Source of the DNA: a virus
Reading direction: 5' to 3' (one strand)
IMG/VR virus record: IMGVR_UViG_3300025687_000024
Location: 46,690 to 110,689 of that record
Length of the DNA stretch: 64,000 nucleotides
Of the stretch, positions 12,337 to 53,313 are shown piece after piece; position 1 is the stretch's first letter; each line of letters begins with the position of its first letter. The notes beneath the pieces are model-generated. The model was not told where the DNA came from, searched no databases, and saw nothing but the letters and a program-made list of their open reading frames with translations. A program made the position numbers and the translations under genes.

Positions 12337-13011
12337 GTGAAGCCCCTCTTCCAGCCCGCGAGACCGTTCGAGGACGGGATGGGGCTTCACGTGCAGCCCC
12401 TCACAACGCTGCTTCTGCAGTTGCTCGGCCCCGAGTACATCGACTGGGACTCCGAGGCGCTCTTCCTCGAGTTGGAAGAGCGTGGAGGCGTCCCCGTGGG
12501 TGCGATGACGCAGGAGCGCATCCAGGCGGTGCGTCTGATGCACCGGCAGCCCTCGTTCTGGCACGACTGGGGAGTGTTCGAGAACGTGACGGCGGCCATC
12601 CTCGGACACGGCGCGGTCTTCAGCCACGCTCAGCCCCCCGATGCGCACGAGATCGCGATCGCGTTGGACGTGGCGCGCGTCTTGGACGCCTCGCGTGCCT
12701 ACTCGGCCGAGGTGCTGCAGTACATCGTCAGTGCGCTGCTCTACGACGGCGTGTGGTACCTCGAGGAGCCTCTCGACCTTGCACAGGCGACCTTGGCGGA
12801 CCACGATAGCACCAAGGGCATCCTTCGGGACGTAGGTCAGGTGGCTGCCGTGCTACAGCGTGTTGGGAACCGCTACATCACGACGCCTTCGACAGCGGCC
12901 GAGGTGCAGGCCAACCACGTCATAGAGGTCAGGAAGGCACGAGCGGAGTACAATCAGCAGGTGCAGGCGCAGTTGCGCCAACTTCCGCAGATCCTCCAGG
13001 AGCTACGATGA
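12337..13011 (+). CDS. Hypothetical protein
   Basis: GGAGG RBS with GTG start; in operon. Confidence 0.75.
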   Translation: MKPLFQPARPFEDGMGLHVQPLTTLLLQLLGPEYIDWDSEALFLELEERGGVPVGAMTQERIQAVRLMHRQPSFWHDWGVFENVTAAILGHGAVFSHAQPPDAHEIAIALDVARVLDASRAYSAEVLQYIVSALLYDGVWYLEEPLDLAQATLADHDSTKGILRDVGQVAAVLQRVGNRYITTPSTAAEVQANHVIEVRKARAEYNQQVQAQLRQLPQILQELR

Positions 13012-13379
13012 GCCAGTACGACACCGTCAGGGAACAGATCATCCTCATGGCGTTCGAGGAAGAGCTCGAGAAGATCGCCGCCGGCTGGTTCACCCCCATC
13101 AAGAAGGGGCTGAAGTCGGCGGGCCACCGCATCATCTCCAAGGCGGCGCCCACGGGCAGCGGGGCGGCTACCGCTGGCATCCGCGGCCTGCGGAAGGGCG
13201 TGAAGCAGGGCAAGCGTGGCTACTGGAAGGCCGGCAAGAAGGCCAGCTTCAAGACGCGGGCGCGGGTCTTCGGAGCCAACGCCATGAACTTCGCCGCGCG
13301 GAACCCCGGTACCGCTGCTGCGGGCGTCGGCCTGGGAGCGGTCGGTGCGGGTGCTGTGGGCGCCAAGGTCCTGAGCTAA
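13008..13379 (+). CDS. Tagged basic protein (AFEEELEKIA) with C-terminal Gly/Ala hydrophobic segment
   Basis: Leader motif, K/R-rich body, AAAGVGLGAVGAGAVGA tail. Confidence 0.75.
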   Translation: MSQYDTVREQIILMAFEEELEKIAAGWFTPIKKGLKSAGHRIISKAAPTGSGAATAGIRGLRKGVKQGKRGYWKAGKKASFKTRARVFGANAMNFAARNPGTAAAGVGLGAVGAGAVGAKVLS

Positions 13380-13383
13380 GCCT

Positions 13384-15315
13384 ATGTCGGGTAGCGGCTT
13401 CGGTCCATCCTCCGGGTACCGCATGAGCGGCAGCAGCAGCTACGCCTTCGGTTCACTGGATGGGAGGAACAACAGCTTCAAGTACCCCTCGGCCTGGTGG
13501 GATGCGGCTCACATGGAGCTGCCCACCACGGTCAAGCACCTCTTCAAGTGGTGCCGCTACCATGCCGTCGCCAACCCGCTCATCAGCTCGACGACCCGCA
13601 AGATGGCGTCGTACCCCATCACGCGGCTCATCATCGAAGACGAGCCCATGGAGGGGTTCGGCAAGAACAAGGAGCGCTGGGAGGACTTGCTCTTCCGGGT
13701 GCTGAACATCCAGCGGTTCATGTTCGAGGGTGGACTGGACTACCACACCTACGGCAACTGCATCGTCAGCCTGCTCTACCCCTTCCACAAGTACCTCGGG
13801 TGCCGCTCTTGCGGCTTCCGCGAGCGCATCAAGCGGCTGAAGTACCAGCAGGAGTGGACGTTCCGCAACTTCAGCTACGAGCTCAACTGCCCGAAGTGCG
13901 GCACCACGGCGCCGGCCGAGGTCAAGGATGAGTGGTACCTCTCTTACAGAGGCATCAAGATCATCCGCTGGGACCCCTCGTCGATCTCCATCGAGTTCAA
14001 CCCCATCACCCAGGCATCCGAGTACGCCTACACGATCCCCGAGCGCATCCGGGCCAAGATCGTGAACAAGCACAAGCCCTACCTCGAGGAGATGCCGCAC
14101 ACCTTCATCCGGGCGGCGCGTCACCGGCGCCCTGTGCAGCTCGTGGCGGGCAACGTCTTCCACTTCCGAGCGCCGACACCCTCCGTCAGCGGGAACGACT
14201 CCGGTTGGGGCTACCCGCCCATCCTGCCTGCGCTCAAGGACAGCTTCTACCTGCAGGTGCTCAAGAAGGCGAACGAAGCCATCATGCTCGAGCACCTGGT
14301 CCCGCTGGACATCCTGTTCCCCAGCACGGCCGACGCCCACGCCAACCCCTACCTGCACGTCAACCTCTCCGACTGGAAGCGGCGCATCGAGACCGAGCTG
14401 GTCAAGTGGCGCATGGACCCCAACCACAAGCCGATCCTGCCGCTCCCCGTGGGGTACCAGCGTGTGGGCGGCACGGGGCGCAGCTTGATGCCTGTGCAGG
14501 AGATCCGAGCCTGGTCCGAGCACATCGTCGTGGGCATGGGGGTTCCTCAGGAGTTCGCCTTCGGGGGCTTGACCTGGTCAGGTTCGAGCGTCTCCATGCG
14601 CATGCTGGAGAACCACTTCCTGATGTACCGGGACATGCTGCACCACTTCATCCAGCACTTCCTGATCCCGAGCGTCTCCCGGTTCATGAACTGGCAGCCA
14701 GTCTCGGCCCGGATGAAGTCCTTCAAGATGGCCGACGACATGCAGATGAAGCAGCTGCTGCTGTCGCTCAACCAGATGAAGAAGCTGTCGGACAAGAGCT
14801 TGTTGGCCGACTTCGACAAGGACTCCCTCGAGGAGCTGCGCCTCATCGAGCAGGAGCAGCGACGCGCGCACGATGTGCAGCGGCAGGACCAGCTGGCCCA
14901 GGCGGAGGCACAGGGCGAGTCCCAGCAGGTCGCCACCAAGTTCCAGATCCGCGCCGAGGAGATGATGCGGAAGCATCAGGAGAGCCTGCAGCGGGAGCAG
15001 ACGCAGGTGATGGGGAGCCAGCCCCCGGCACCCGGGCAGGATCCCGCACTGGCAGCAGGCCAGCCCCAGGCTCCCGGTCGACCGCCTGCCCAGCAGCACG
15101 TCAGCAACGTCAACGTCATCGAGCTGGCCGATGCTTGGGCCAAGCGCCTGCTCGGCCTGGAGCAGCACGAGCAGTCCCGGGTCCTCCAGGACATGGCTCG
15201 CCAGAGCCCCTCCCTGCACAAGCTCATCCTGCAAAAGATGAGCGAGGTGAGGGCGGCGACGCAGGAGCCGCTGCCAGAGCAGAGGCCCCCACGTCGCCAG
15301 AACGCGGTGATCTGA
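13384..15315 (+). CDS. Portal protein with zinc-ribbon insertion
   Basis: Portal-like blocks NPLISS, DYHTYGNC, FHFR..GWGYPPILPAL and IVVGMGVPQEF; CRSC...CPKC insert; Q/P-rich C-terminus. Confidence 0.8.
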   Translation: MSGSGFGPSSGYRMSGSSSYAFGSLDGRNNSFKYPSAWWDAAHMELPTTVKHLFKWCRYHAVANPLISSTTRKMASYPITRLIIEDEPMEGFGKNKERWEDLLFRVLNIQRFMFEGGLDYHTYGNCIVSLLYPFHKYLGCRSCGFRERIKRLKYQQEWTFRNFSYELNCPKCGTTAPAEVKDEWYLSYRGIKIIRWDPSSISIEFNPITQASEYAYTIPERIRAKIVNKHKPYLEEMPHTFIRAARHRRPVQLVAGNVFHFRAPTPSVSGNDSGWGYPPILPALKDSFYLQVLKKANEAIMLEHLVPLDILFPSTADAHANPYLHVNLSDWKRRIETELVKWRMDPNHKPILPLPVGYQRVGGTGRSLMPVQEIRAWSEHIVVGMGVPQEFAFGGLTWSGSSVSMRMLENHFLMYRDMLHHFIQHFLIPSVSRFMNWQPVSARMKSFKMADDMQMKQLLLSLNQMKKLSDKSLLADFDKDSLEELRLIEQEQRRAHDVQRQDQLAQAEAQGESQQVATKFQIRAEEMMRKHQESLQREQTQVMGSQPPAPGQDPALAAGQPQAPGRPPAQQHVSNVNVIELADAWAKRLLGLEQHEQSRVLQDMARQSPSLHKLILQKMSEVRAATQEPLPEQRPPRRQNAVI

Positions 15316-15590: not shown

Positions 15591-18500
15591 ATGCCGTACC
15601 TGAGCCCTGACGAACAGTTCGCTGACCTCAAGAGCAAGGTCTCGTCCACCCTGATGGAGCTCTTCCCCGTGGAGGGGCGCGGCGGCCGCGTCGTCCTCAA
15701 GAACGTGGAGGTCGACGACAACCTCGACACGCATGACCTGCGCTCGCAGCGGGTAGCTCTGCAGGAGGGGAAGACCTGGGCGGTGCCCGTGTACGGGGAT
15801 GCTGTGCTCGAGCGCGAGGGCCAGGAGATCGACCGCAAGCGCGTCCTGCTGATGCACCTGCCCAAGACCACGGACAGGTTCGGCTACATCGTCAAGGGGC
15901 GGGAGTACCAGGCGCTCACCCAGTTCCGGCAGAAGTCCGGCGTGTACCACCGCACGGCGAGCAACGGCGCGCTGTTGGCCGAGTTCAACCTGGCCAACAG
16001 GGACCAGTTCGCCAACGGGCGTACCTTCAAGGTGCGGTTCGATCCCGAGGAGGCGGTCTACTACCTGCAGCACGGCAACTCCAACATCCCGCTGTACCAC
16101 CTGTTGAAGGGTGCCGGGGTCTCCGACCGGGAACTCGAGCAGCGCTGGGGAGCTGCCATCGTGCAGAAGAATCGAGAGCGGGCCTCGGCCGAGCAGGTCT
16201 ACTCCCGCTTCTACAAGGCGGTGAACAAGAAGCAGCCCGCGGATCCCATGAGGCACGCTGGGCTGTTCCGCGAGCTGCTCGGTAAGACCCGGCTGCGGGC
16301 GGACACGACCAAGAAGACGCTGGGCGCCGAGTTCGAGACTGTCGACAACGAGGTCCTCCTGCGCGCGACCGAGAACCTCCTCGACATGTCGAAGGGGCGC
16401 CGGGAGGATGACCCGAAGACTTCGCTGGAGTTCCAGTCCGTTCACACCATCGACGACTTCATCGACGGCCGCTTGAAGCGTGCGGCGCCGAGCATTCGCC
16501 GGAAGCTGGCCAACGCTCTGGCCAGCGGGCGCACGCGCAACGTACGCCGCGTGGTGAAGGCCGATCCGTTCGACCGGGCAGTGCAGGGCTACTTCACCTC
16601 TGACCTGACGGTGAACCCCGAGCAGACCAACCCCTTGGAGATGCTCGCCGGCCAGCTCAAGACCACCATCATGGGCGAGCAGGGAGGCTACAAGTCGGCG
16701 CACGTGGTGTCCGAGGAGTCCAAGCTCATCAGCCCGTCGCACCTCGGCTTCCTCGACCCCATCCACACCCCGGAGAGCGACAAGACGGGAGTGACCCTCT
16801 CGCTGCCGCTCGGTGTGAAGAAGGTCGGCAACGAGCTCGAGACGCTGCTGGTGGACGCCCGGACGGGGAGGACGCGGCGCATGCAGCCCGCGGACGTGCT
16901 CGACCAGACGGTGGCCTTCCCCGATCAGTACGAGCGGAAGGGGAAGAAGCTGGTAGCCCGTCACGCCAAGGTCAAGGCTACTCGTGGTGGAGAGGTCGTC
17001 ACGGTCCCTGCGAGCGAGGTCGACTACGTACTCCCCAGCCCACGCAGCCTGTTCGGCGTAGCGTCCAACCTGGTGCCCTTCCTGCAGAACAACCAGGGCA
17101 ACCGCGCCATGACCGCGGCCAAGCAGCAAGAACAGGCCGTGCCCCTGGAGCACCGGGAGGCTCCCCTGGTGCAGGTCGAGATGGACCGCGGGGGTACCTT
17201 CGAACAGGCTCTTGGCCTGTACGCCTCTCGCCGGGCCCCCGTAGCCGGGGTCGTCAAGACGGTGAAGAAGGACGCGGTGATCATCAACGACGGGGACAAG
17301 GACCACGAGGTCCAGATCTACCGCAACTTCCCGCTGAACGGGACCTCCCTCTACGACATGGACGTCCAGGTCAAGAAGGGTGACCAGGTCGAGAAGGGGC
17401 AGCTCCTCGCGGACTCCACCTTCACCAAGGACGGGACGCTGGCGCTCGGAACCAACCTGCGGACCGCCTACATCCCCTTCATGGGGTACAACTTCGAGGA
17501 CGGCATCGTCATCTCGGAGGCCGCTGCGAGGAAGCTGGCGTCGCGCCACCTCTACAAGAAGTCCACAGCGCGGGATGCCGACACGATCCTCAGCCGGAAG
17601 ACCTTCCTGGCAGAGTACCCCTACGTCTTCGGCAAGGGGCAGCTGAGCGGTGTGGGGGAGGACGGCATCGTGAAGCCCGGCACCATCCTCAACGAGGGTG
17701 ACCCGCTCATCATGGTGCTGCGGAAGCCCCCCATGACCAAGGCACGCAAGCAGATCCGGGAGTTCCGCCGAGGGCGGCCTGACAAGTACCGGGACCGCTC
17801 CGTCGTGTGGGACAAGCCCTACCAGGGCGAGGTCACCGAGGTCGTGCGCAAGGGCAAGGACGTCACGGTCTACGTCAAGACCCGAGAGCCCGCCCAGATC
17901 GGCGACAAGGTCGTCGGGCGGCACGGCAACAAGGGCGTCATCACGCGCATCATCCCGGTGTCCGAGATGCCCTGGAAGGAGGGAGAGAACGGCGAGAAGG
18001 AGCACGTCGAGATCGCGCTGAACCCCCTGGGCGTGCCCGGGCGCATCAACCTCGGGCAGATCCTGGAGACCGCGGCGGGTAAGGTGGCCGAGAAGCGCGG
18101 GAAGCCCTACGGCGTGCGCAACTTCGAGGCCGAGAAGGACTACCTGGCGATGGTCAAGGAGGACCTGGCCGCCGAGGGTCTGCAGGACCGCGACGAGCTC
18201 ATCGACCCTCGGACGGGGAAGCCCTTCCCCAACCGCATCCTGGCGGGCAACCAGTACATCGTCAAGCTGAAGCACCAGGTGGGCAAGAAGGTCTCTGCCC
18301 GTGCCGGCGGTCCCGGCGCGCCCTACGACATCAACCACGCGCCGGCCGGGGGCGCTCCCCACGGGGGGCAGGCTCTGGGGGAGCTCGGGATGTACTCCAT
18401 GCTGGCGCACGGAGCCCGGGAGAACCTCCACGAGATGTTCGCCTACAAGTCGTCCCGCAACCACGAGCTGTGGGATGCCCTGCGAGAAGGGACGCCGCTA

Positions 18501-21500
18501 CCGCCCCCGAAGGTGCCCTTCGCCTACGAGAAGTTCCTCTCCTACCTGAACGCCATGCGCGTCGACGCACGGAAGCACGGGAACAGCCTGACCTTGGTCC
18601 CGTTCACCGAGGAGCAGGTGAAGTCGATGTCGGCCGGGGAGCTCAAGGATCCCGGGCTGGTGGTGCGCGGCAAGGACTTGCGTCCGCTCAAGGGCGGGCT
18701 GTTCGACGAGGACATCACGGGCGGCATGCTCGGGGACAAGTGGGCACACTTCAAGCTCGCCGAGCCCATGCCGAACCCGCTCTTCGAGGACGCGGTCAAG
18801 AAGCTCCTCAACATCACCCGCAAGCGCTACGCGGACATCGTCGCGGGACGGGTGGAGGTCAAGGGCAAGCGGGGCGGGGAGGCCATCAAGGCCCTGCTGG
18901 AGGACGTCAACGTCGCGGAGCAGCGGGAAGCCATCACTGCGAAGCTCGCGACTGCGAAGGGAGCCACGCGGAGCAAGCTGCACAAGCAGCTGCGCATCCT
19001 CAAGGCCCTGGAGGCCAACAACCTCGACCCCACGGTCTACATGATGGAGTCCGTGCCCGTCGTCCCGCCGATCATGCGCCCCGTAACGGTCAAGGACGAC
19101 GGCTCCCTCTCGTCCAACGACTTGAACTACCTCTACAAGGGCATCGCGGCCTCCAACGACGTGCTCCGGAGCAACAAGCGGGCAGGCCTGCCCGCAGCCC
19201 ACATGGAGACGGTGCGCTCCGAGCTGTACGATGGCGTCAAGGCCCTGATGGGTGTCGGCGCCGCGGCTGCGCCGGGCCCGCGCGACTACCAGGGAGTGCT
19301 CAAGATCATCTCGGGGGATCAGCCCAAGGAGGGCTACTTCCAGAAGCGCGTGATGAAGCGCCGCCAGGACTTCTCGGCCCGGTCCATCATCATCCCGGAG
19401 CCGGGCATGGACCTCGACGAGCTCGGGGTGCCCGAGAAGGTGGCCTGGTCGCTGTACCAGCCCTTCATCGAGCGCGACCTCGCCCGGGCGGGCTGGAAGA
19501 TGCTCGACGCCATCAACGAGGTCAAGGCCCGCGGTCCCGCGGCCGAGAAGGCGTTGGAGCGTGCGGTGCAGGAGCGCCCCATTCTACTGAAGCGCGACCC
19601 CGCTCTGCACATGTTCAACGTGATGGCCTTCAAGCCCAGGCTGGTGAAGGGCAGCGCCATCGAAATCCACCCCCTCGTCGTCTCGGGCTACAACGCTGAC
19701 TTCGACGGCGACGCCATGAGCGTGTACCTGCCCCTCACCTCGAAGGCGGTGAAGGAAGCGCATGGCATGTACCCGTCCAAGAACTTGTTCAGCTCGAGCA
19801 CGGGTGCCGTGATGCACACGCCCGGGCACGAAGCGTTGCTCGGCCTCTACCTGGCGTCGAAGCCCGGGAAGCGCACGCGGCACACGTTCAAGACGGGAGA
19901 AGACGCGCGGGCGGCCTGGCGTCGGGGACGTATCGACCGGACGGACATCATCCACGTGGCTGGGCACGAGACTACGGTGGGCCGGCTGGACATCGAGCGG
20001 CACCTGCCGCCGGAGCTGCGGGAGACCGGGAAGAAGCCTGTCTCCCAGATGCGGGTCTACGACAAGGGGACCACCAAGAAGGTGCTGACGGCCATCGCCA
20101 AGAAGAACCCTGACCACTACGGCAAGGTGGCCAACGCCTTCAAGGACATCGGCAACGAGCACACCTTCGACGTAGGGTTCTCCATCGGCCTCGACGACTT
20201 CGAGGTCATCAACCGGAAGGAGCGGGACTCCATGATGCAGGCGGCCGAGGCCCAGGCGGACCGCATCCGGCAGGGTCCCGGGAGCAAGCAGCGGAAGGAC
20301 GAGCGGGTCGTCAAGATCTTCCAGGACCTCGATGACTCCCTCGACCGCCTCAACACCGAGCACCTGGCCCAGAACCCCACCAACATCTCCCGCATGGTGG
20401 AGTCCGGGGCGCGCGGCAAGCCCTCGCAGCTCAAGCAGATCATCAGCAGTCCCGTGTTGGTGATGGACGCGAAGAACCGGGTGGTGCCGAGCCTCATCCC
20501 GCGGTCGTACTCCGAGGGCATGGACGTGGCGTCCTACTGGACCACGCTGCACGGTGCGCGGAAGGGCACCATCCAGAAGGTGCAGGGCGTGAAGGACCCC
20601 GGGTACATCTCCAAGCAGGTGATGAACTCCACCATGAACCAGCTCGTCACGGAGCGAGACTGCGGGACGACCGAGGGCATCTTCATGTCCGTCGATGACT
20701 CGGACATCCTGGACAGGTACACGGTGCAGGGGACGCTCATCACGCCGAAGGTGGTGGCTGATGCGCGGAAGCGCCGACAGCGCTCCCTCAAGGTGAGGTC
20801 CCCCCTGCGGTGCAAGTCGTCGCACGGCATCTGCCAGAAGTGCATGGGGCTGAGCGTGAACGGACACCACCACGATGTGGGGACCAACGTGGGGGTGCTC
20901 GCTGGGCAGGCCATCGGAGAGCCCGCGACGCAGCTCTCCCTCAACGTCTTCCACACGGGAGGCTTGGCCAAGGGGCGCGGCTCGAAGAGCGTCAACGCCT
21001 TCCACCGGCTCACCGAAATCTTGCGGCTCCCCAAGAACCTGCCGGACGCAGCGCCGCTGGCCCTGGAGTCGGGGACGGTCACCAAGGTCGAGCGCGCGCC
21101 GCAGGGCGGCGAGTACGTGACCGTCGGCCGGACGCGCCACTACCTCCCGGCGGCTCAGGCCAGGGCGGTGAAGCGCGGGCAGCCTGTGCGCAAGGGCGCT
21201 CCGCTGACGGATGGCGTGGTGGACCCGCGCAACCTGCTGTCCCTGCGGGGCCTCGAGGCTGTGCAAGACCACCTCACCGACGAGCTCGCCGACGTCATGG
21301 GTACGGTGGCTCCGGTGAAGCGACGCAACCTCGAGGTCGTCGTCAAGTCGCTCACGAACGTCACGCACATCGACGATGCGGGAGACCACCCGGAGTGGGT
21401 TCCGGGCGATGCGCAGCCCTACAGTGCCGTGCAGGCGTACAACCGGAAGCCCGGCACGAAGCCGGTCAAGCATACGCCCTACCTCAAGGGAGTCAACGTC

Positions 21501-36571: not shown

Positions 36572-36871
36572 ATGCTGGAATCCTTCGCCACGGAGCTCGA
36601 GAAGTTGGCCAACACCGCCACCAAGAACGTCCCTCAAGTCGGCCTGGGCATGACCCTGCCGTCTGGGAACAGCGGTGCTGGTGTGCGAACTTCGTCGGCG
36701 CGCGGCCTGGGAATCAAGCACCAGCCTCCGATGCCTCGACCGCCGCGGGGAATGAGCAGCAAGGCGGTCAAGACCCCCAGCACGGGACGGCTTGGCACCA
36801 AGATCGACCCCGCTCGCGGGATCAAGACTGTACCAACCCCGCTCCGAGGTGATACCTTGGTGCGTGCGTGA
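36572..36871 (+). CDS. Tagged small basic protein (SFATELEKLA)
   Basis: Leader motif followed by a basic Pro/Gly-rich body. Confidence 0.7.
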   Translation: MLESFATELEKLANTATKNVPQVGLGMTLPSGNSGAGVRTSSARGLGIKHQPPMPRPPRGMSSKAVKTPSTGRLGTKIDPARGIKTVPTPLRGDTLVRA

Positions 36872-41746: not shown

Positions 41747-41816
41747 GCCCCTACCCCTACCCCCCACGACTGGGTGCCTGCGTCAAGGGCACCATGCCCC
41801 AAGCAGGAGGCACCCC

Positions 41817-42851: not shown

Positions 42852-43442
42852 ATGAGCCACTCCTTGCCCCCCGAGCTCGCCCGCGGGTTCTTCTCCGAGC
42901 TGGAGAAGGTTGCCATCCTCCTCGGTGCCGGCACCGGAGCGGTCGCTGCCGGTCAAGGGAACCGGGGCGAGGGTGCGCTGTACGGAGGTGCCGGAGGCAT
43001 CTTGGGCGCCATGGCTGGCGCGACCCCGGGCGCTCTCGCTCAGATGGCGCGCGACACTCCCAAGAAGGCACGCCGTGGGCGAGGGAAGATCTCGGCCCTG
43101 ACCGCTCTCGGCGTCCTCACTGGAGAGGCTCTGGGCGGCGTCGCCGGCGGGCGCCTGGCCAAGAAGCACGCCCAGGAGCGCCGGGCAAAGCACCGGGAAG
43201 CCACCAAGAAGGCCGTGCGCGAAGCCCTCGCCGAGCAGAAGGAGAAGAAGGGCTCGGTCGAGAAGGTCGCTATCTCCGTCGCCGGTCCGGCGCAGCCGGG
43301 GGGCGCTGCGTTCGTGTTCCAGCTGGCCCGGAGTTCCCAGCGAGAGACCCAGCGCAACCTGCTGCGCCGCACCGGCAAGAAGGCGGTCAAGCTGCGCAAG
43401 AAGATCCCGGCTCCCCAGCAGGTGCCCGCCGCCGCCAAGTAG
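42852..43442 (+). CDS. Tagged basic protein (GFFSELEKVA) with glycine-zipper-like segments
   Basis: Leader motif; GALYGGAGGILGAMAG and ALGVLTGEALGGVAGG; second VEKVA site. Confidence 0.75.
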   Translation: MSHSLPPELARGFFSELEKVAILLGAGTGAVAAGQGNRGEGALYGGAGGILGAMAGATPGALAQMARDTPKKARRGRGKISALTALGVLTGEALGGVAGGRLAKKHAQERRAKHREATKKAVREALAEQKEKKGSVEKVAISVAGPAQPGGAAFVFQLARSSQRETQRNLLRRTGKKAVKLRKKIPAPQQVPAAAK

Positions 43443-43449
43443 GTGACCC

Positions 43450-43938
43450 ATGCTCTCTGCGCCGCTACAGGATGCCTTCATCGCCGAGCTGGAGAAGATC
43501 GCCTTCCTCAAGACCCTCCGGCGGGCCAAGCCCAAGACGCCGCCGAAGCGCGTACGTCGCTTCCGGGTGAAGGCCAACTCCGGGCACCAGCCCGGGGTCG
43601 TGCGCAACGGCTACCTCGAGGCACCGCCCTCCCAAGCGGAGACCAACCGCATCGCTCGGCAGTTCCTCAAGGACCTCGAGAAGCGGTCCTTCGCCAAGGT
43701 GGTCACGAAGAACACCACCCGCGTGGCCCGTAGTGGTTGGGAGAAGGCAGTGCGCCCCAATCCGTCCGGGATGATCAACCAGACACGCGCCTGGACCATC
43801 CGCCCGCGTGGAGCCCCCGCCGCATCCCAGCGCGCCACCTCCAAGCCCACCAAGCTGAAGGGGTGGGTGCGTCGCAGCACCAAGGAAGAGGTCCGTGCGG
43901 GGCCGCGCCCCGCGCTGGCGCGGGGCGCAGTCAGCTGA
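43450..43938 (+). CDS. Tagged highly basic protein (AFIAELEKIA)
   Basis: Leader motif followed by an R/K-rich body. Confidence 0.75.
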   Translation: MLSAPLQDAFIAELEKIAFLKTLRRAKPKTPPKRVRRFRVKANSGHQPGVVRNGYLEAPPSQAETNRIARQFLKDLEKRSFAKVVTKNTTRVARSGWEKAVRPNPSGMINQTRAWTIRPRGAPAASQRATSKPTKLKGWVRRSTKEEVRAGPRPALARGAVS

Positions 43939-43957: not shown

Positions 43958-44869
43958 ATGCTCGTTCCCGTCAACATCCGGGTCTGGACCCTCTCCCGCG
44001 ACTCCCTGACCATCTCCTGGGCGTTCCGCAACACCACGGCAGCGCTGGGCGACTACAGCATCACGGTGCTGCGGTCTGGTTCCGCTGCGGGAGGGTACGA
44101 GGAGATCTCGAGCGCCTTCGCGGCAGACGCGACCGTGGAGTTCGTGGACTCCGAGGTAGTCCTGCACTCCAAGTGGCGGGAGTATTTCTACCGGCTGCGG
44201 GTCACGGCGCCCGATGGCTCGACCACGGACTTCGGCTCGGTGGACTACAAGAGGGTCCTGGCTGGAGACGACGCCGGCGGCGTCGTGCTGGAGAGCTTGC
44301 CCGACCTGGTGGCCCTCGAGGCCATCCGGCGTTTCGACATGCTCCTGCAGACCAAGATCGGGCGGGAGCTCCTGGTGCTCAACCACAGGTCCACTGGGCA
44401 GCGCTGTGCCGAGTGTTGGGACAACTTGAAGAGGCGACGTACCAAGAGCAAGTGCCTGACCTGCTACGGCGTGGGGGTCTCCGGGGGGTACTACTTCCCC
44501 AAGCAGGCCTGGGCCGCCAAGGTACCCCACCGGGCATCCGTACAGCTCACCCCGCTGTTCGAGATGCAGAACAACGACGCGCTCCTGTGGATGTCGTCGC
44601 GTCCACGGGTGGTCCCGCGTGACCTGGTCATCGATGCTGATGGGCGGCGCTGGCGCGTCATCGACATTCAGCGGCACGAGAAGCTGTGGGCTCTCACCCG
44701 ACAGACCGTGCAGGTGCGCGAGCTGTCCAAGGACCAGGTGGAGTACGACATCCCGATCTCGGCTGACGAGTGGGACATCGACCCGGTGGCGGCCACGCCC
44801 TACAGGCAGTACATCAATGCTACGAACCTCGACAGTCACCGTCGAGCGAAGCGGGAGCTTGGCCTATGA
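43958..44869 (+). CDS. Putative neck/head-closure protein with FN3-like N-domain and zinc finger
   Basis: LTISW...YFYRLRV; CAEC...CLTCYGVG; PRDLVID..GRRWRVIDI. Confidence 0.6.
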   Translation: MLVPVNIRVWTLSRDSLTISWAFRNTTAALGDYSITVLRSGSAAGGYEEISSAFAADATVEFVDSEVVLHSKWREYFYRLRVTAPDGSTTDFGSVDYKRVLAGDDAGGVVLESLPDLVALEAIRRFDMLLQTKIGRELLVLNHRSTGQRCAECWDNLKRRRTKSKCLTCYGVGVSGGYYFPKQAWAAKVPHRASVQLTPLFEMQNNDALLWMSSRPRVVPRDLVIDADGRRWRVIDIQRHEKLWALTRQTVQVRELSKDQVEYDIPISADEWDIDPVAATPYRQYINATNLDSHRRAKRELGL

Positions 44870-45417
44870 TCATGCCCACCCTCTCCGTCGCAACCGTCCG
44901 CGCCTTCCAAGGCGAGCTGGTCAAGATCGCGAAGGTGACCCCAGCTACCGTGGCCCTCGGGGCGCTCGCGGGAGGCAGCGCTGGGGCACTGGCGCACAAG
45001 CACTACACCAAGGACGAGCGGTCGAAGGACGAACTGCTGCGGGACCTGAAGCGCATGCCCGAGAAGACCTACCAGGCTCGGCGCAAGGAGCGGGGTGCGC
45101 GCACGGCAGGCGCGGCGGCGCTCGGCGCCATGACGGGCGCGGGGGCTCCCGTGCTCTACAGGGAGGCGGCCCGAGCTGTTGGGCGCGCAGTGGACCGCAC
45201 GGTCAAGCCCACGCTGCAGACGGCCAAGAGCGGGATCGACGACTCCGTTGAGAAGGGCGTCGCCGAGTACGACCGCATGCTGCAGCGCCAGGCCGACTAC
45301 CTGCTCGACCAGCTCCGCGGTCCGCGGGGGGCACGCGCCGCCGAGACCCTCGGGGAGAGTGCGCGCAAGGGCTTCCTGCCCAGGTTCCTCCGCCGGCGGA
45401 GGGCCAACCCGCAGTGA
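44866..45417 (+). CDS. Tagged basic protein (AFQGELVKIA)
   Basis: ATG 44866 overlaps the upstream stop; two G/A hydrophobic segments. Confidence 0.75.
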   Translation: MIMPTLSVATVRAFQGELVKIAKVTPATVALGALAGGSAGALAHKHYTKDERSKDELLRDLKRMPEKTYQARRKERGARTAGAAALGAMTGAGAPVLYREAARAVGRAVDRTVKPTLQTAKSGIDDSVEKGVAEYDRMLQRQADYLLDQLRGPRGARAAETLGESARKGFLPRFLRRRRANPQ

Positions 45418-46007
45418 GCCTCTCCCTGACCAGACACGCCTTCGAGGTCGAGCTCACCAAGATCGCCCAGCACAAGTGGCGCAAGGTGGAGAAGCCTCCT
45501 GTCGCCCTCGATGCCGCGGCGGCCATCGCTACCGGGCTCGGGCTCGGCGCGACGGGCTACATGGGCGCGCGTTTCGGGTACCCGAAGCTGATGAAGCTCC
45601 TCGGACGGCCGGTGGAGCGCCCCTCCAAGAAGGCTCGCGCCATCGCTGCCCTCTTGGCAGGGCTGGCAGGAATGGGCACACTGGAACTCGGCAGGAGATG
45701 GGTGAATGACAAGACCCGGCCAGCAAGCGGCATACGAGCTCGTCGAGCAGTACAACCCGATCACGGGCAACTGGCTCGCGGACACGAAGGACATCCTGCT
45801 CAGGTTCCTCCAAGACTTCTTCTATCAGATGCCGGCGGGGATGGACCTGTTCCACTTCGAACCGGGGGAGGAGGACTACAGCACGGCGGAGACGGAGACG
45901 GAGCTGATCGTTTCCGACGCCGGAGCGGTAGGTACCGATACCGTGGAGACGCGCCCGGCGATCTTGATTTCGCGGGGCCCATTCGCCTACGGCAACGTCA
46001 GTCTTGA
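45414..46007 (+). CDS. Tagged basic protein (AFEVELTKIA)
   Basis: Leader and two hydrophobic segments in the first ~100 aa; the remainder overlaps the next gene. Confidence 0.65.
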   Translation: MSLSLTRHAFEVELTKIAQHKWRKVEKPPVALDAAAAIATGLGLGATGYMGARFGYPKLMKLLGRPVERPSKKARAIAALLAGLAGMGTLELGRRWVNDKTRPASGIRARRAVQPDHGQLARGHEGHPAQVPPRLLLSDAGGDGPVPLRTGGGGLQHGGDGDGADRFRRRSGRYRYRGDAPGDLDFAGPIRLRQRQS

Positions 46008-49400: not shown

Positions 49401-49560
49401 CCAGGGCCTGGGCCGCTACCTGGTCGAGGCGGGGGTGCTCTCCACCTTCTCCATCTCCAGCATCGGCGTGGACCCGGATGCCTCCGACACCGTGAACGTC
49501 ACCGTCGTCATCTCGGTGCCCTACCCCTGCAACTACATCGCCATCGAGCTCCAGGTCTGA
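46498..49560 (+). CDS. Contractile tail sheath protein with large insertion domains
   Basis: N-terminal ITRPGIQV; C-terminal LTNSTVAGF, CRHQLTTD, REWSI..TIDY and VPYPCNYIAIELQV. Confidence 0.88.
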   Translation: MSITRPGIQVSTTETTSSPTIVQPTLRACLIGPCFRLIDAFDDEGALDSDAYAGTYRDGYGTIAYDLPSFGAEDDLTGFDDEVRVFLVNSDDSYTELNSSSDEETLEAGTGDYTQASGVFEDGAALFESEGVEAGDVVRLAYMGVTYDIVIESVDGETLLTIDNTGVPENLSNVAYTVVRNPAQFAYQSSAQQSYVLLGEEGDYLSIQTQPLGDYAGSTGDGLSLTLQETSAYTSGADLAYGDCVFYDSDADKSFETAVDLEDTNYLFIGAGPGTTLTAITAVYDDNTLIVATGEGADQTGLSYVVGKQTDSGDNGATAGGDETAFSAAGQNFLTSIPQVGGAGTAPLADTFLYISGVGVYQITEVTSDEALVIAAGAGAGLSGKDFETVEVIQADTTGCFFDDDELLSPSDDFSDVPAEVTDYDVVVGGVGYTIASIAAGKVTVDAALPGDGGAAQSYGVYITDADLLVQWDATAETLTVTLARADGLSVGTLDSLYDALTNDEAEGYDADVAEVFTAAEEVGSGDLTDYLGTYTFDGGADADQLLLDADLMGSTVPTGRVYVSYKALRLDVTPAAEEPQLLSYESTTESVAALGAANAENPLSLAFYKALQNATGKSVAGIGVDDVSAARPMGTAEAYDAAFSFLEGESVYFLVPLTQDVVVQQALQVHVEAMSEPENKAFRCCLINQVLPEYSSATLVSSGTDLNTEADFATTGTMTASVDFVAAGVEAGDIVIVAALADSASSPDVAYGTQGPLYGFVVEEVGPDDDNFTLTLDVADHAALAALWASQVDVSFSIYRSGSAISTASAQATALAEIGPNFDSARVVLVWPDEVLASIDSTEQAIEGFYLAAAVAGKKSRLPPQRGLTNSTVAGFTGLRHSSGYFSSSQLDEIAGGGTMIFMQETAGGALKCRHQLTTDVASIERREWSIRTTIDYTAMFFQQSLARQVGVNNITQSYLDSLATQIQGLGRYLVEAGVLSTFSISSIGVDPDASDTVNVTVVISVPYPCNYIAIELQV

Positions 49561-50408
49561 TGTACGCCTTCCTCGGCTTTCGCAGCGAACTGAACAAGAT
49601 CGCTGCCTCGGACAACCCAGACGTCACGCGAATGCTCGCGGCGGCGCTGGACTCCCAGGATCGAGCCGAGCGTCTCGAAGGCTTGCTGGACGCCTCCAAG
49701 AAGTCCGCCTACCCCAAGGCCATTGCCGCCGGGGCGCTGGCGGGCTTCGGGATGCCCTTCCTCTACGGCGTCCTGCCGACTCTCCAGGGACGCAAGGCGC
49801 TGGAGGAGGCGGTACAGCAGCGTGTCAACGAGAAGTACCTGACCGCGGCCGTCGAGGACATCCTCGGGCTGTCCGGCAAGGATGCCCGCGGGACCGCCCA
49901 GTCCATCATGGGCTTCATGAAGTCCAAGCCAGCCGCTTGGACTTCGGCTGGCGAGGAGGCGTTGAAGTCGCTGCGGCTGGCCCGAGGCACCCAACCCGCC
50001 CAAGGCGCCTTTGCTCTGATGGGGCAGGGCGGGACTCCCATCGTCGGGCAGATGGGCTTCCGCACCTCGGGCGAAGGCCTGGCGCAGACCCTGCGCCAGG
50101 CTGGGATGGGAGGGGACGTCGCGCGGCGCTACGTCATGGAGTCCTCCCCCTCGGTGGTCCACGCCTTCCCCGAAGGGATGGAGTGGCGCAACATCATCGA
50201 GGACTCGCGTGAGGTCTACAAGCGCAAGCACGGCAAGTTGCCGAAGTCCGGTGCCCGTCTGAAGATCCTGAGCAAGATCCTGGCCGAGAAGAGCGTGGGC
50301 GCGGCGCGCAGCGCGCTTCCCTTTGCTCTCTTGGGCGGCGGACTCGCCGCGCTTCGGGTACGTTCGAAGCGCCAGCAAGCCGAAGACCTCCGACGGAGAA
50401 TCGGATGA
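49560..50408 (+). CDS. Tagged protein (GFRSELNKIA) between sheath and tube
   Basis: ATG overlaps the sheath stop; hydrophobic segments near both ends. Confidence 0.75.
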   Translation: MYAFLGFRSELNKIAASDNPDVTRMLAAALDSQDRAERLEGLLDASKKSAYPKAIAAGALAGFGMPFLYGVLPTLQGRKALEEAVQQRVNEKYLTAAVEDILGLSGKDARGTAQSIMGFMKSKPAAWTSAGEEALKSLRLARGTQPAQGAFALMGQGGTPIVGQMGFRTSGEGLAQTLRQAGMGGDVARRYVMESSPSVVHAFPEGMEWRNIIEDSREVYKRKHGKLPKSGARLKILSKILAEKSVGAARSALPFALLGGGLAALRVRSKRQQAEDLRRRIG

Positions 50409-51451
50409 GCACCTCCATGACCGATCGTGAAGCCCTGATCCGCTTCCTGCAGCTCCCTGCCTCACAGCGGCAGGAGGTGGCGCAGTCCGTGCGCAAGGCC
50501 GGGAAGGCTGGCAGGGTCGCAGGCGGCGCTGCGGGCTTCACCGCGGGTGCCGTGGCCACCAGCCCGCTCATCCGAGCCATCGCCAAGGTGAAGAACCCCG
50601 TCACGCAGACCCTGCTGCTCTCCGCCACGGTGGGAGCGGGGCACGTGGCCCCCACCATGGCAGGCGCCCGACTCGGCAAGCGAGTGGCCGAGAAGCGCCA
50701 CTTCAAGGGGAAGCTGAAGCGCCTGCAGGCGCCGGCTCTCATGCAGTCGGGGTACCCCCTGCAGAAGGCAGCCCAGGACAGCCGGGAGGACATCGTACTC
50801 CGCGGCCGAACGATGGCGCATGCCTTCTACGACGAGATCGAGAAGTTGGCGGAAGCCGCCGTGCGCCGTGAGCGCTTGATGCCCAAGGAGTCTCCCGTGC
50901 AGGGTGTCCTGGGTGCCGATGTGGAGCAGGAAGACGACAAGAACGCGCGCGCGGTCCCTGTGCTGGACCCGCCGCCTGGCTACGTGTTCTCCCCCGAGCT
51001 CGGAGCCTTCACGCCCGACCCCGCCAACCCTGGCTGGATGACGCCTGAGCAGGCCGAAGAGGCCCGCAAGCACAAGCTCTACTACGATGAGGGCTACCAG
51101 GCGGCCGCGCAGAACCAGGAAGAGGTGGCCCAGATGGAGCAGCAGGGCGCCCAGATGTCACCGCAGCCCGGGATGCCGGGTACGCCTGGCGACATCGCGG
51201 GCTCTGGTCAGGGGCCTGCAGCGATGCAGCCCGGTGCCGATCCTGCTGCCGGTCAGGCCGCAGCCGCGGGCCAGCCCGCACAACCCGGGGGCCAGGCGGC
51301 AGCGCCTGCTCCCGGCACGGAGGCGGCAGCGCAAGCTGCGGGACAGCCCACGCCTCCCCCTGCCCCGGAGGCTGAGCAGCCGGCCTCTTCCCCGTCGCCC
51401 AAGAACAAGAAGCCTTCGTCCCGGGACATCACCATCAAGGTGAGCCGGTAG
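50405..51451 (+). CDS. Protein with internal tag (GRTMAHAFYDEIEKLA) and Q/P/A-rich tail
   Basis: Basic G/A-rich N-part, internal motif, low-complexity C-part. Confidence 0.75.
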   Translation: MSTSMTDREALIRFLQLPASQRQEVAQSVRKAGKAGRVAGGAAGFTAGAVATSPLIRAIAKVKNPVTQTLLLSATVGAGHVAPTMAGARLGKRVAEKRHFKGKLKRLQAPALMQSGYPLQKAAQDSREDIVLRGRTMAHAFYDEIEKLAEAAVRRERLMPKESPVQGVLGADVEQEDDKNARAVPVLDPPPGYVFSPELGAFTPDPANPGWMTPEQAEEARKHKLYYDEGYQAAAQNQEEVAQMEQQGAQMSPQPGMPGTPGDIAGSGQGPAAMQPGADPAAGQAAAAGQPAQPGGQAAAPAPGTEAAAQAAGQPTPPPAPEAEQPASSPSPKNKKPSSRDITIKVSR

Positions 51452-51463
51452 AGGAGACCCCCC

Positions 51464-52219
51464 ATGGCCACGATGTCCGACTGGAACTTCTTCAACCGCA
51501 ACGTACAGAGCGGCATGCTCGAGGGGCGGTTCATGAATGCGGCCTTCACGCTGGTGGCCGCGGGGCCGCCACGGCTCGCCGCAGCCGGCGTGGACGTGGA
51601 GAGCGGCGAGCTCACGGAGCTGGGCAACATCGCCTACCCCATCGGCGTGCTGCAGAGCATCAACCTGGGCCAGAACTCCAACATCGTCCGGCTGTGGGAG
51701 ATCGGCTCCATGCGGAGCTACTTCGCCCGCGGGCGGACCATGGGTCAGGTCGGGCTCGGCCGCATCATGTACCACGGCCCCTCCCTGCTGCGCGTGATGT
51801 ACGCCTACCTGGGCGGGCGGCTCGACACGGGCGAGGAGTTCCTCGCGCTGTACGAGAACTCGGCCAAGGCCAAGCTCAACACCAGCGGTGAGGAGGGAGG
51901 CAAGCAGGTCTACCGGCTCCCGCCGGGCTACGAGAACCTGTGGCTGGACCTGGCCTCCGACGTCTTCGACCAGCCCATCGGCCTGCTGGTCTACATGCGC
52001 GACTCCAACGAGGACACCATCGGCGCGTTCTACCTGGAGTACTGCATGATCGCCAACCACGGGTGGATGGCGGACGCCTCCGGCACCATCATGTCCGAGA
52101 ACGTCGGCGTGATGTACGAGCGCATCATCCCCATCGACATCCGTGCCGTGGAGCTCATCCGGTCCAGCGAGGACGTGGAGAGCATCGTGGGCGCGAACGT
52201 GATCGGCAGCGCGGCCTAG
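51464..52219 (+). CDS. Tail tube protein
   Basis: PIGVLQSINLGQN...RLWEIGS; downstream of the sheath gene. Confidence 0.75.
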   Translation: MATMSDWNFFNRNVQSGMLEGRFMNAAFTLVAAGPPRLAAAGVDVESGELTELGNIAYPIGVLQSINLGQNSNIVRLWEIGSMRSYFARGRTMGQVGLGRIMYHGPSLLRVMYAYLGGRLDTGEEFLALYENSAKAKLNTSGEEGGKQVYRLPPGYENLWLDLASDVFDQPIGLLVYMRDSNEDTIGAFYLEYCMIANHGWMADASGTIMSENVGVMYERIIPIDIRAVELIRSSEDVESIVGANVIGSAA

Positions 52220-53313
52220 GCTACGCGAGGTACCGCGGGAGCCGCTCCGGCAGCGCCCGGGGCAGCGGGCTGAGGGATGCGCCGGTGGCGGAAGTTCCCG
52301 GCGGCGGGCTGCAGCTCTGCACGCATGGCGGGGTTCTGCGGGCGGTCCTCCAGGTGACGCTTGAGGGCCACCGCGCCCGTCAGGCCCGCAAGGGCTCCGC
52401 CTCCGATCATGGCCGGAACGCCGGCGAGGTGCTTCAGTCGGAAGTACCTGTAGGCCGAGGGGGCCCGCGGGACCTTCCCCGTGGCCGCGGTGATGGCTGC
52501 CTTCTCACGCGACATCGCCTTGGACTTGGCCTCGCCCACGGCGTGCTCGGCCTGGCGGAACACGCCCTGGCGGTCGAAGCCCCGCTGTGGGGCGAAACGA
52601 GCCTCGACGCCCGTGTCCACCTTGAGCTTGTCCCCGCCCAACCCGTCGAAGGCCGACCGGATGCTCTTGGACATCCGGTCGTAGTCGTAGACGTCCATCT
52701 GCCAGGCGCCGCGCTTCCGCCGCTCGAGCTGCTTCCGGATCTGGGCGGTGGGCTTCTCCAGCCGGATGGCCACATCGAAGTGACCCGGGTTGGCCTTGGT
52801 GAAGATGTGGCTCTGGTCCATGACGATGCCCTTGCGGCCCTTCAGCCCAGCGCTCTCGATGTACTTCTCGACCTGGCGCCCCTTGGTGAGGTGCTTGCCA
52901 GCCGCGTCCAGGTCGCGATGCTCCAGGCCGAGCTGCCTGGCGAGCTCGCGCGCCAGCGTGGTCTTGCCCGTGCCTCCCGTGGCGCCGATTGCGATGTTGA
53001 TCTTCTTCGGATCCAGGCCTCGGCGTCGAATCTCCTTGGCGATGGCCTTGGCCTGCGCGATGACCTGGGGAGGGGTGCCCCGCTTGGCCGCTTCCTGGGC
53101 CTCTATCGCCCGGGCGCCTCCCTTGCCGATGCTGGCGAGGTGGGCGCCGAGCTCGATGCGCAAGCCCTTGTACCTGCCCAGCACCCCGGCGGTACCCGCG
53201 GCCGTTCCGGCAGCCGCGCCGCCGGCTCCGGCCATCACGTCACCCTCGTCCACACGGGGAGCAGCGATCTTCTCGAGCTCGTCACAGAAGGCGTAGTAGG
53301 TCGTGCCGGACAT
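52216..53313 (-). CDS. Tagged P-loop kinase/NTPase (AFCDELEKIA)
   Basis: NIAIGATGGTGKTTLARELARQLG, nucleotide/shikimate-kinase-like; flanked by G/A hydrophobic segments. Confidence 0.85.
   Translation of the reverse strand: MSGTTYYAFCDELEKIAAPRVDEGDVMAGAGGAAAGTAAGTAGVLGRYKGLRIELGAHLASIGKGGARAIEAQEAAKRGTPPQVIAQAKAIAKEIRRRGLDPKKINIAIGATGGTGKTTLARELARQLGLEHRDLDAAGKHLTKGRQVEKYIESAGLKGRKGIVMDQSHIFTKANPGHFDVAIRLEKPTAQIRKQLERRKRGAWQMDVYDYDRMSKSIRSAFDGLGGDKLKVDTGVEARFAPQRGFDRQGVFRQAEHAVGEAKSKAMSREKAAITAATGKVPRAPSAYRYFRLKHLAGVPAMIGGGALAGLTGAVALKRHLEDRPQNPAMRAELQPAAGNFRHRRIPQPAAPGAAGAAPAVPRVA

What the first reader, a model, noticed from the sequence alone, without database searches (positions are those of the whole stretch)
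13008..53313. Shared N-terminal tag FxxELxK(I/L/V)A on nine unrelated proteins: candidate virion cargo-loading and injection system
Seen: the same ~10-aa motif lies in the first 25 residues of 13008 (AFEEELEKIA), 33300 (AFQQELEKIA), 36572 (SFATELEKLA), 42852 (GFFSELEKVA), 43450 (AFIAELEKIA), 44866 (AFQGELVKIA), 45414 (AFEVELTKIA), 49560 (GFRSELNKIA) and 52216 minus strand (AFCDELEKIA). It also occurs internally in 50405 (AFYDEIEKLA) and 40814 (GYASELEKLS). After the motif the proteins share no obvious sequence, but they are basic and most carry Gly/Ala-rich hydrophobic segments. The genes are slotted singly or in pairs between core genes: before the portal, between neck genes, and between sheath and tube. 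I did not see the motif in replication or right-arm genes. Known: T4 internal proteins use a short N-terminal capsid-targeting sequence that the prohead protease removes. Inference: this is a modular address-plus-cleavage leader that loads a varied set of membrane-active or DNA-binding cargo into the head for delivery at infection.
Basis: partly seen in the sequence, partly recalled or inferred. Interest (0 to 1): 0.92.

Follow-up and report, generated by a model that had tools for sequence, protein, structure and literature searches.

The report
Shared capsid-loading leader on phage proteins
An uncultured ~190-kb phage lineage puts the same short N-terminal peptide on a dozen or more unrelated, very basic proteins. 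The peptide ends in what looks like the cutting site of the phage's own head-maturation protease, so it is most likely a "load into the capsid, then trim" tag like the one phage T4 uses, written in a different code.

Summary
Four more N-terminal copies lie upstream of the window in the same 110.7-kb viral contig. Thirteen of 15 strong copies start within the first 30 residues (P about 1e-9). The tagged proteins are not paralogs (all BLASTP E > 0.01). Their pI is 8.5-12, and most have Gly/Ala-rich hydrophobic segments.

The tag is conserved across the clade. A complete 193-kb relative carries at least 9 N-terminal copies on different basic proteins. A tagged HExxH protein keeps the tag in 36 homologs.

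The core of the tag, E-K-[ITVL]-A, is about 12-fold enriched in the proteome. It also marks the conserved N-terminus of the major capsid protein, acidic scaffold-like proteins, and the disordered linkers of a 561-aa protein. That protein's model has the T4 gp21/herpes assemblin protease fold (Z 9.3).

Best reading: a T4-CTS-like propeptide with a new K-x-A code. Cleavage, packaging and injection are all unmeasured. I found no paper that describes it. Unchecked notes from this scan report similar ELEKIA or K-x-A leaders in two other genomes. I class it as a new variant of a known kind.

The parts
13008..13379 (+). Tagged protein, 123 aa. The tag is at residues 15-24. pI 12, with a Gly/Ala-rich C-terminal hydrophobic segment. 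It lies directly upstream of the portal gene.
   Evidence: A tagged gene sits in the same position upstream of the portal in relative G004.
33300..33845 (+). Tagged protein, 181 aa, pI 11.7, Gly-rich.
36572..36871 (+). Tagged small protein, 99 aa, pI 12. Small tagged ORFs (open frames of about 80-100 codons) lie in the head-gene neighbourhood of many relatives, and the ones I located sit just downstream of the protease gene.
42852..43442 (+). Tagged protein, 196 aa, pI 11.6, Gly/Ala-rich hydrophobic segments.
43450..43938 (+). Tagged protein, 162 aa, pI 12, Arg/Lys-rich.
44866..45417 (+). Tagged protein, 183 aa counted from the ATG at 44866, pI 10.6. A hydrophobic segment follows the tag directly.
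45414..46007 (+). Tagged ORF with a GTG start. The coding signal holds only for about the first 95 codons, and the rest overlaps the frame of the 45706 gene.
49560..50408 (+). Tagged protein, 282 aa, pI 10.1. It lies directly downstream of the sheath gene.
52216..53313 (-). Tagged protein, 365 aa, with a weak P-loop NTPase/kinase-like region. It is an ORFan in the 5.8-billion-protein search.
50405..51451 (+). Protein with an internal full tag (nt 50822-50851) preceded by M-A-H. The C-terminal half is Ala/Pro/Gln-rich.
   Evidence: The same 'G-R-x-M-A-H-A-[FY]..E..K.A' internal form recurs in relatives.
40814..41746 (+). Acidic scaffold-like protein. It has repeats of roughly 40 residues, each ending in E-K-T-A-G, plus an internal tag-like copy at nt 41261-41290.
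36073..36567 (+). Acidic scaffold-like protein just downstream of the protease gene. It has three E-K-[TV]-A sites and a degenerate internal tag.
41814..42200 (+). Acidic protein with two M-E-K-V-A sites and a degenerate internal tag.
34454..36139 (+). Candidate prohead protease, 561 aa. Residues 59-280 have the T4 gp21/herpes assemblin fold. K-x-A sites lie at residues 39, 266, 304, 315 and 506, in or at the edge of disordered segments.
   Evidence: AF2 model, pLDDT 74. VIA-align gave 5jbl_A Z 9.3, rmsd 2.9, 131 aligned, and herpes proteases Z 5-8. The N-terminal F-E-K-V-A site is conserved in relatives.
38537..39565 (+). Major capsid protein. A core site, E-K-L-A, is at residues 23-26 (nt 38603-38614).
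   Evidence: PHROG major head protein, E 1e-12. 'E-G-K-E-K-I-A' is conserved at this position in most of about 80 relatives.
13384..15315 (+). Probable portal protein (context).
   Evidence: Weak PHROG portal hit. The portal-then-RNAP gene order matches phage Arash. tblastn finds 40% identical homologs in relatives.
15591..21701 (+). Fused multisubunit-type RNA polymerase beta/beta', 2036 aa (context). It is untagged.
   Evidence: The Arash homolog is the most abundant protein in the virion MS data (PMC10585845).

Best explanation
The leader (1-29 variable residues, then [ASG]-F-x-x-E-L-x-K-[IVL]-A) is an N-terminal propeptide with two jobs.

1. Its last residues, (hydrophobic)-E-K-[IVTL]-A, are the recognition site of the phage's own prohead protease. 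That protease is the 561-aa gp21/assemblin-fold protein at 34454-36139. It probably cuts after the small residue (Ala, or Gly/Ser in relatives).

2. The additional conserved residues (Phe at -8, Glu-Leu at -5/-4) put F, L, I and A on one face of a short amphipathic helix. This helix most likely docks the protein into the assembling prohead core, as the T4 capsid targeting sequence does.

The protease then trims the leader. This frees a changeable set of very basic, Gly/Ala-rich proteins inside the head, plus a few enzyme-like ones: an HExxH protein, a P-loop protein and a zinc-ribbon protein.

Shown by computation: the motif, its N-terminal position, the unrelated bodies, clade-wide conservation, the core shared with MCP, scaffold and protease sites, and the protease fold.

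Inferred: cleavage, the cut position, the addressing role, virion location, and delivery into the host.
For: - Motif statistics: 14 strict copies in the contig against 0 in shuffles. N-terminal bias P = 1.4e-9.
- Bodies are unrelated, pI 10-12.
- Most tagged genes have Shine-Dalgarno-like sequences and GC3 of 0.83-0.92.
- Clade-wide conservation: 79 unique strong copies in relatives, mostly 1-15 residues after a Met. At least 9 N-terminal copies sit on basic proteins in a complete 193-kb relative, with no similarity to this phage's cargo.
- The tagged HExxH family keeps the tag in 36 homologs at 33-44% identity, with K invariant.
- The core E-K-[ITVL]-A occurs 30 times against 2.4 +/- 1.5 in per-protein shuffles.
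- The core marks the conserved MCP N-terminus and the protease N-terminus in relatives.
- It lies in the disordered linkers of the protease model and repeats in acidic scaffold-like proteins.
- Non-tag sites lack the upstream Phe, so the extra tag residues are not needed for a site as such.
- Protease fold: T4 gp21 Z 9.3, herpes assemblins Z 5-8.
- Distant cultured kin (Arash, Vibrio phage D69) show looser hydrophobic-x-K-x-A sites in the homologous MCP, protease and scaffold genes, and at N-termini of small basic Gly/Ala-rich proteins.
- Several such Arash proteins were detected in virions by MS (PMC10585845).
- Precedent: T4 internal proteins share only a CTS (PMC3012670).
Against: - There are no proteomic or biochemical data for this phage or its close relatives.
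- The Arash virion proteome is permissive (116 proteins, including ribonucleotide reductase) and reports no cleavage analysis.
- The protease match is by fold only. Pfam S77 and S78 do not hit, and I did not check the catalytic residues in 3D.
- The cut position after Ala is a guess, taken from where conservation ends and from the herpes assemblin P1-Ala rule.
- The virion RNAP homolog has no tag in relatives, so packaging does not require it.
- Several tagged genes sit among tail genes, which fits head cargo less tidily.
- A tagged HExxH protein could be an alternative processing enzyme.
Confidence: 0.58

Rival explanations
1. Cleavage only. The leader is a protease-removable propeptide, for example one that keeps membrane-active basic proteins inert until they are inside the prohead. 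It carries no address, and the proteins enter the head by other contacts.
For: The core is shared with the MCP, scaffold and protease sites. Some serine and cysteine proteases read long helical leaders, so the whole 9-residue motif could be extended substrate recognition. The RNAP homolog has no tag.
Against: Roughly 30 non-tag sites lack the upstream F..E-L residues. Those residues are nonetheless strongly conserved in N-terminal copies across the clade, which suggests a second function.
Confidence: 0.2
2. Uncleaved docking helix. The motif is a protein-protein interaction helix that binds portal, scaffold, MCP interior or a chaperone and stays on the mature protein. K-x-A is then a binding signature and not a protease site.
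For: The amphipathic pattern has F, L, I and A on one helical face (read from the sequence). AF2 draws the tag of the HExxH protein as a helix, at low confidence. Full internal copies occur in scaffold-like proteins.
Against: The core is about 12-fold enriched. It sits in disordered linkers that flank the protease domain and at the MCP N-terminus. This is the classical distribution of prohead protease sites, as in SPN3US with A-x-E (PMC10052503).
Confidence: 0.13
3. Not virion-related. The leader targets small membrane proteins to the cell membrane, or marks them for a host system, for lysis, superinfection exclusion or similar roles.
For: Many tagged proteins have hydrophobic Gly/Ala-rich segments. 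The model of the HExxH protein resembles only helical membrane proteins, and weakly.
Against: The tag also sits on proteins with no hydrophobic segment (zinc-ribbon protein, 43450, 33300). The genes are embedded in the head and tail operon. The core is shared with the MCP, protease and scaffold. No C39 leader peptidase is encoded in the contig.
Confidence: 0.06
4. Chance, or ordinary paralogy from gene duplication.
For: None beyond the low-complexity Gly/Ala composition shared by the bodies.
Against: 0 hits in shuffles. No pairwise similarity outside the tag. The tag is conserved in relatives on different bodies.
Confidence: 0.01

Closest known systems
Phage T4 capsid targeting sequence (CTS) on internal proteins IPI/IPII/IPIII and Alt, removed by prohead protease gp21
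   Same: A short N-terminal leader is the only thing shared by otherwise diverse proteins (PMC3012670). The leader ends in the phage's own head-protease motif. The protease has the gp21 fold. The cargo is basic and evolves fast.
   Different: The sequence and code differ: F-x-x-E-L-x-K-I-A ending in Ala, against the T4 leader ending in hydrophobic-x-Glu (my recollection of T4). There is no Pfam S77 match. There are 13 or more cargo genes per incomplete genome, spread through head, tail and a distal cluster, against a handful in T4. The cargo is dominated by Gly/Ala-rich hydrophobic basic proteins. The phage is a ~190-kb clade that encodes a multisubunit-type RNAP and is not T4-like.
phiKZ/SPN3US giant-phage head maturation (protease gp175/gp245, motif S/A/G-x-E)
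   Same: Many head and ejection proteins lose N-terminal propeptides. The protease cuts itself. Some propeptides are short, at 20-24 residues (PMC10052503). The virion is thought to package an RNA polymerase.
   Different: The motif there is A-x-E with the cut after Glu, and most propeptides are 111-254 residues with no shared leader. Here there is one shared short leader and a K-x-A core.
Herpesvirus assemblin (S21) maturation and release sites, (V/L/I)-x-Ala|Ser
   Same: The protease folds match (Z 5-8). There is a protease domain followed by a linker and a C-terminal helical domain, with sites at the junctions. The likely P1 is Ala, and small residues are frequent at P1' in non-tag sites.
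   Different: The assemblin rule is from my memory and was not tested. The P3 Lys and P4 Glu preference is not the herpes pattern. No herpesvirus cargo-leader system is known to me.
Double-glycine leader peptides (bacteriocins, PCAT substrates)
   Same: An N-terminal amphipathic helix has E-L-x-x-I spacing and is followed by small residues at the cut. Some relatives end the tag in K-I-G.
   Different: This resemblance is from memory only. No C39 peptidase is found in the contig. The tag ends in Ala rather than Gly-Gly, and the context is a virion operon.

Membership tests
T4-type capsid targeting sequence system | A short N-terminal leader shared by otherwise unrelated phage proteins | tested here: met
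   13 N-terminal copies. Bodies are unrelated by BLASTP.
T4-type capsid targeting sequence system | The leader ends in the cleavage motif used by the phage's prohead protease on MCP and scaffold | tested here: inconclusive
   The core E-K-[ITVL]-A is shared with the conserved MCP N-terminus, the protease linkers and the scaffold-like proteins. No cleavage has been measured.
T4-type capsid targeting sequence system | A gp21-family prohead protease is encoded | tested here: met
   Met at fold level only: 5jbl_A Z 9.3, rmsd 2.9, 131 of 165 residues aligned.
T4-type capsid targeting sequence system | The leader resembles the T4 CTS sequence and ends in hydrophobic-x-Glu | tested here: not met
   The tag ends in K-[IVL]-A, so this is an analog and not a homolog of the T4 CTS.
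T4-type capsid targeting sequence system | The leader is sufficient to encapsidate a foreign protein, and the cargo is found in virions and ejected | not testable with these tools
   This needs reporter fusions and virion proteomics.
Pfam Peptidase_S77 (T4 gp21) / Peptidase_S78 (HK97-type) | Sequence match over the curated cut-off | tested here: not met
   There was no Pfam hit for 34454-36139, and no S77 or S78 hit anywhere in the contig.
phiKZ/SPN3US propeptide processing | Cleavage motif S/A/G-x-Glu | tested here: not met
   The enriched motif is E-K-x-A. The SPN3US rule is taken from PMC10052503.
Herpesvirus assemblin-type substrate code | P1 Ala with a small P1' residue, at junctions of the protease and scaffold domains | tested here: inconclusive
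   Sites lie at domain junctions, and P1' is often A, S or G in non-tag sites. The scissile bond is unknown.
Double-glycine leader / PCAT export | A C39 peptidase-ABC transporter partner and a Gly-Gly cut site | tested here: not met
   There is no PF03412 hit in the contig, which is about 65% complete. The tag ends in Ala.

The most novel reading that the evidence does not exclude
This clade of ~190-kb phages that encode a multisubunit-type RNA polymerase has independently evolved a portable capsid address. Its code is read by a gp21-fold protease with herpes-like specificity for a small P1 residue. The phages use it to load a large, fast-turning-over arsenal of glycine-zipper-like basic proteins, plus a conserved HExxH enzyme. 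These are released in the head and ejected to build or open the DNA conduit in the host envelope. If so, the 9-residue leader would be a ready-made tag for packaging foreign proteins into these phages.
Probability: 0.3. Interest if true: 0.72.

Novelty: new variant of a known kind. Interest (0 to 1): 0.6.

Why it matters
If confirmed, this would be a second, sequence-unrelated example of the T4 capsid-targeting principle. It comes from an almost unstudied phage clade: 227 MCP relatives in IMG/VR, and only phage Arash and three Vibrio phages as distant cultured kin.

It would give three things:
- A simple rule for listing the packaged and processed proteins of these phages from sequence alone.
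- A candidate new specificity (K-x-small residue) for the gp21/assemblin protease fold, bridging the phage and herpesvirus maturation codes.
- A short portable tag for loading proteins into large capsids.

It also points to a cargo class, very basic proteins with Gly/Ala-rich hydrophobic segments, whose role in DNA condensation or envelope penetration is unknown.

Tried and rejected
- Megablast of 20 kb against 50,697 phage records gave no match.
- Pfam and PHROG scans of the tagged proteins gave nothing except a weak P-loop region in 52216 and a zinc ribbon in genome 8144.
- A homolog search for the P-loop protein found only itself.
- Pfam and PDB-sequence searches of the protease candidate gave nothing. 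Foldseek alone was weak, E 0.2-0.9. Only VIA-align gave a usable Z.
- The fold search of the HExxH cargo model gave only low-TM matches to helical membrane proteins, so I assigned no function.
- I considered that the RNAP N-terminus carries a degenerate tag. I rejected this because relatives lack K-x-A there.
- The tag HMM found nothing in phage Arash. Arash has only the looser K-x-A form.
- Literature searches for the motif or a K-x-A prohead code found nothing relevant. The Arash paper mentions neither a protease nor cleavage.
- A double-glycine/PCAT reading found no support: no C39 peptidase was found in the contig, which is only about 65% complete.
Full report
**Source.** The window is bases 46,690-110,689 of a 110,689-bp IMG/VR viral contig, estimated about 65% complete, with 66-68% GC. 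It has no close match among 50,697 phage records.

Family hits identify these genes:
- a terminase large subunit at 29245
- a major capsid protein at 38537
- a tail sheath at 46498
- a weak portal hit at 13384
- a 2036-aa fused multisubunit-type RNA polymerase at 15591

The MCP has 227 relatives in IMG/VR, several on complete 185-193-kb contigs at 50-75% identity. The only cultured kin are distant. They are Salmonella phage Arash (34% MCP identity) and Vibrio phages D69, D181 and D148.

- The whole contig has 14 strict copies, against 0 in 50 shuffles.
- Four further N-terminal copies lie upstream of the window. They sit on a zinc-ribbon protein (genome 8144), a 611-aa HExxH protein (9317) and two basic proteins (12058, 12677).
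- Thirteen of 15 strong copies start by residue 30, Poisson-binomial P = 1.4e-9.
- With the tag removed, no pair of tagged proteins reaches E < 0.01.
- Mature pI is 10.1-12.0 for twelve of the thirteen, and most have Gly/Ala-rich hydrophobic stretches.
- Most tagged genes have Shine-Dalgarno-like sequences and gene-like GC3.
- The exception is 45414, whose codon signal switches to the frame of the 45706 gene after about codon 95.

**The tag is a property of the clade.**
- A position matrix built from the tags finds at least 9 N-terminal copies in a complete 193-kb relative (G004). The consensus there is S-F-F-D-E-L-x-K-I-[AG]. A second complete relative has about five.
- Across the sequence I held from about 80 relatives there are 79 distinct strong copies, mostly 1-15 residues after a Met.
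- The tagged proteins of the relatives are again basic (pI about 10-11 in G004) and show no similarity to this phage's cargo.
- Tagged genes keep their positions. One example is the gene directly upstream of the portal in both genomes.
- Where a tagged protein does have homologs, the tag is kept. The HExxH protein has 42 relatives. In 36 aligned ones at 33-44% identity the N-terminus reads F-S-x-E-L-V-K-I-A-A, with Lys invariant, and the A-H-E-L-G-H motif is invariant.

**Link to head maturation.**
- The last residues of the tag belong to a wider motif. E-K-[ITVL]-A occurs 30 times in my gene set, against 2.4 +/- 1.5 in per-protein shuffles.
- Outside the tags it marks residue 23-26 of the MCP. 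This site is conserved as E-G-K-E-K-I-A in most of about 80 relatives.
- It also marks three acidic, repeat-rich scaffold-like proteins next to the MCP and protease genes.
- It marks several larger proteins of unknown function, with sites conserved in relatives.
- It marks the 561-aa protein at 34454.
- That protein has no Pfam or PDB-sequence match. Its AlphaFold model has mean pLDDT 74, and above 90 over much of residues 60-260.
- The model aligns best to the T4 prohead protease gp21 (Z 9.3, rmsd 2.9 A, 131 of 165 residues). All herpesvirus assemblins follow at Z 5-8, clearly above the unrelated MCE-domain rows at Z of about 4.
- His142/His143 and Ser199 are invariant in 27 homologs. By my recollection their spacing resembles His85-Ser140 of gp21. 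I could not check this in 3D.
- Its own K-x-A sites sit at residues 39, 266, 304, 315 and 506. These are in or at the edges of the model's disordered segments (1-46, 277-328, 500-516) that flank the protease domain and a C-terminal helical domain.
- The N-terminal site is conserved as F-E-K-V-A-[AS] in relatives.
- This distribution (MCP N-terminus, scaffold, protease self-sites) is the classical footprint of a prohead protease code, as documented for SPN3US with A-x-E (PMC10052503).

**Address versus cut site.** The roughly 30 non-tag sites share only (hydrophobic)-E-K-[TV]-A and lack the upstream Phe. The N-terminal copies add a strongly conserved Phe at -8 and Glu-Leu at -5/-4, and they prefer Ile at -1. 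On a helix, F, L, I and A fall on one face. AlphaFold draws the tag of the HExxH protein as an N-terminal helix, at low confidence. So the extra residues are not needed to make a site, yet they are conserved. That is why I favour a second, docking role like the T4 CTS, in which diverse internal proteins share only the leader that takes them into the scaffolding core (PMC3012670). This step is inference. Full copies of the tag also occur inside scaffold-like proteins, preceded by G-R-x-M-A-H. I cannot explain these beyond noting that scaffold and cargo may bind the same partner.

**Evidence from cultured kin.** In Arash and Vibrio phage D69 the homologous MCP, protease and scaffold-like genes carry a looser hydrophobic-x-K-x-A motif. 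Small basic Gly/Ala-rich proteins there begin with short K-x-A leaders. Several such Arash proteins (gp213, gp221, gp224) and the protease homolog gp222 were detected in virions, and the RNAP subunit was the most abundant protein (PMC10585845). That proteome lists 116 proteins and includes metabolic enzymes, so it is weak evidence. The paper does not discuss a protease or cleavage.

**Limits.**
- Nothing shows cleavage, encapsidation or ejection in this phage.
- The scissile bond is assumed.
- The protease is identified by fold only.
- The RNAP homolog is untagged in relatives.
- The cargo functions are unknown.

**Verdict.** The best reading is a CTS-like, protease-trimmed capsid-loading leader with a new K-x-A code in an unstudied clade. 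This is a new variant of a known kind. I found no paper describing it in the held library. Other unchecked notes of this scan report the same ELEKIA or K-x-A leaders in two further genomes, and T4-style leaders in several others.

Noticed in passing
window 45414-46007 and 45706-46479: The tagged ORF 45414 keeps a gene-like third-position GC only for about 95 codons. The signal then moves to the +1 frame, which is the 45706 gene. This could be a long out-of-frame overlap, an assembly indel, or a frameshift that joins the tagged N-terminus to the downstream protein.
   Followed up: partly
window 40814-41746: An acidic protein built of repeats of roughly 40 residues (E-L-D-L-D-N-M-S ... E-S-G-E-I-V ... 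E-A-E-K-T-A-G), each ending in the putative cut site. It looks like a scaffold or polyprotein that would be chopped into modules.
   Followed up: partly
window 36073, 40814 and 41814 (N-termini): Three acidic scaffold-like proteins share a second N-terminal pattern, roughly L-x-x-I-Y-G followed within 2-10 residues by [ED]-K-[TV]-A. A relative has the same pattern (L005 near 12293). This may be a separate leader class.
   Followed up: no
window 15591-21701: A single-chain beta/beta' multisubunit-type RNA polymerase of 2036 aa lies next to the portal gene. In phage Arash the beta-like subunit gp206 lies beside the portal, beta' (gp216) is a separate gene about 5 kb further on, and gp206 is the most abundant protein in the virion MS data. 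A virion RNAP is therefore likely here.
   Followed up: partly
genome 6372-8147 (upstream of window; L106): An SNF2-family helicase begins M-S-V-R-W-F-Q-K-L-A, a possible short K-x-A leader. It is followed by a Pro/Lys-rich stretch and lies next to the distal cluster of tagged genes. In Arash, a protein annotated 'DNA helicase' (gp217) is abundant in the virion MS data; I did not test whether it is homologous to this SNF2 helicase.
   Followed up: no
genome 9317-11152 (L106): A tagged 611-aa protein has an invariant A-H-E-L-G-H zinc-peptidase-like motif and long Gly/Ala-rich helices. It is conserved in 42 metagenomic homologs and has no Pfam or PDB match. It could be a packaged metallopeptidase, or an alternative processing enzyme.
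   Followed up: partly
protein cluster P0001 (window 52216-53313): The identical P-loop protein is recorded on a 157-kb contig. A more complete copy of this phage genome therefore exists and could supply the missing ~35%.
   Followed up: no
L110 (Vibrio phage D69) 5437-5616, 14320-14628, 18891-19346: A cultured phage has small basic Gly/Ala-rich proteins that start with M-D-K-V-A, M-F-K-S-A or ...L-L-E-K-I-A. This would be a tractable system for testing the K-x-A code.
   Followed up: partly
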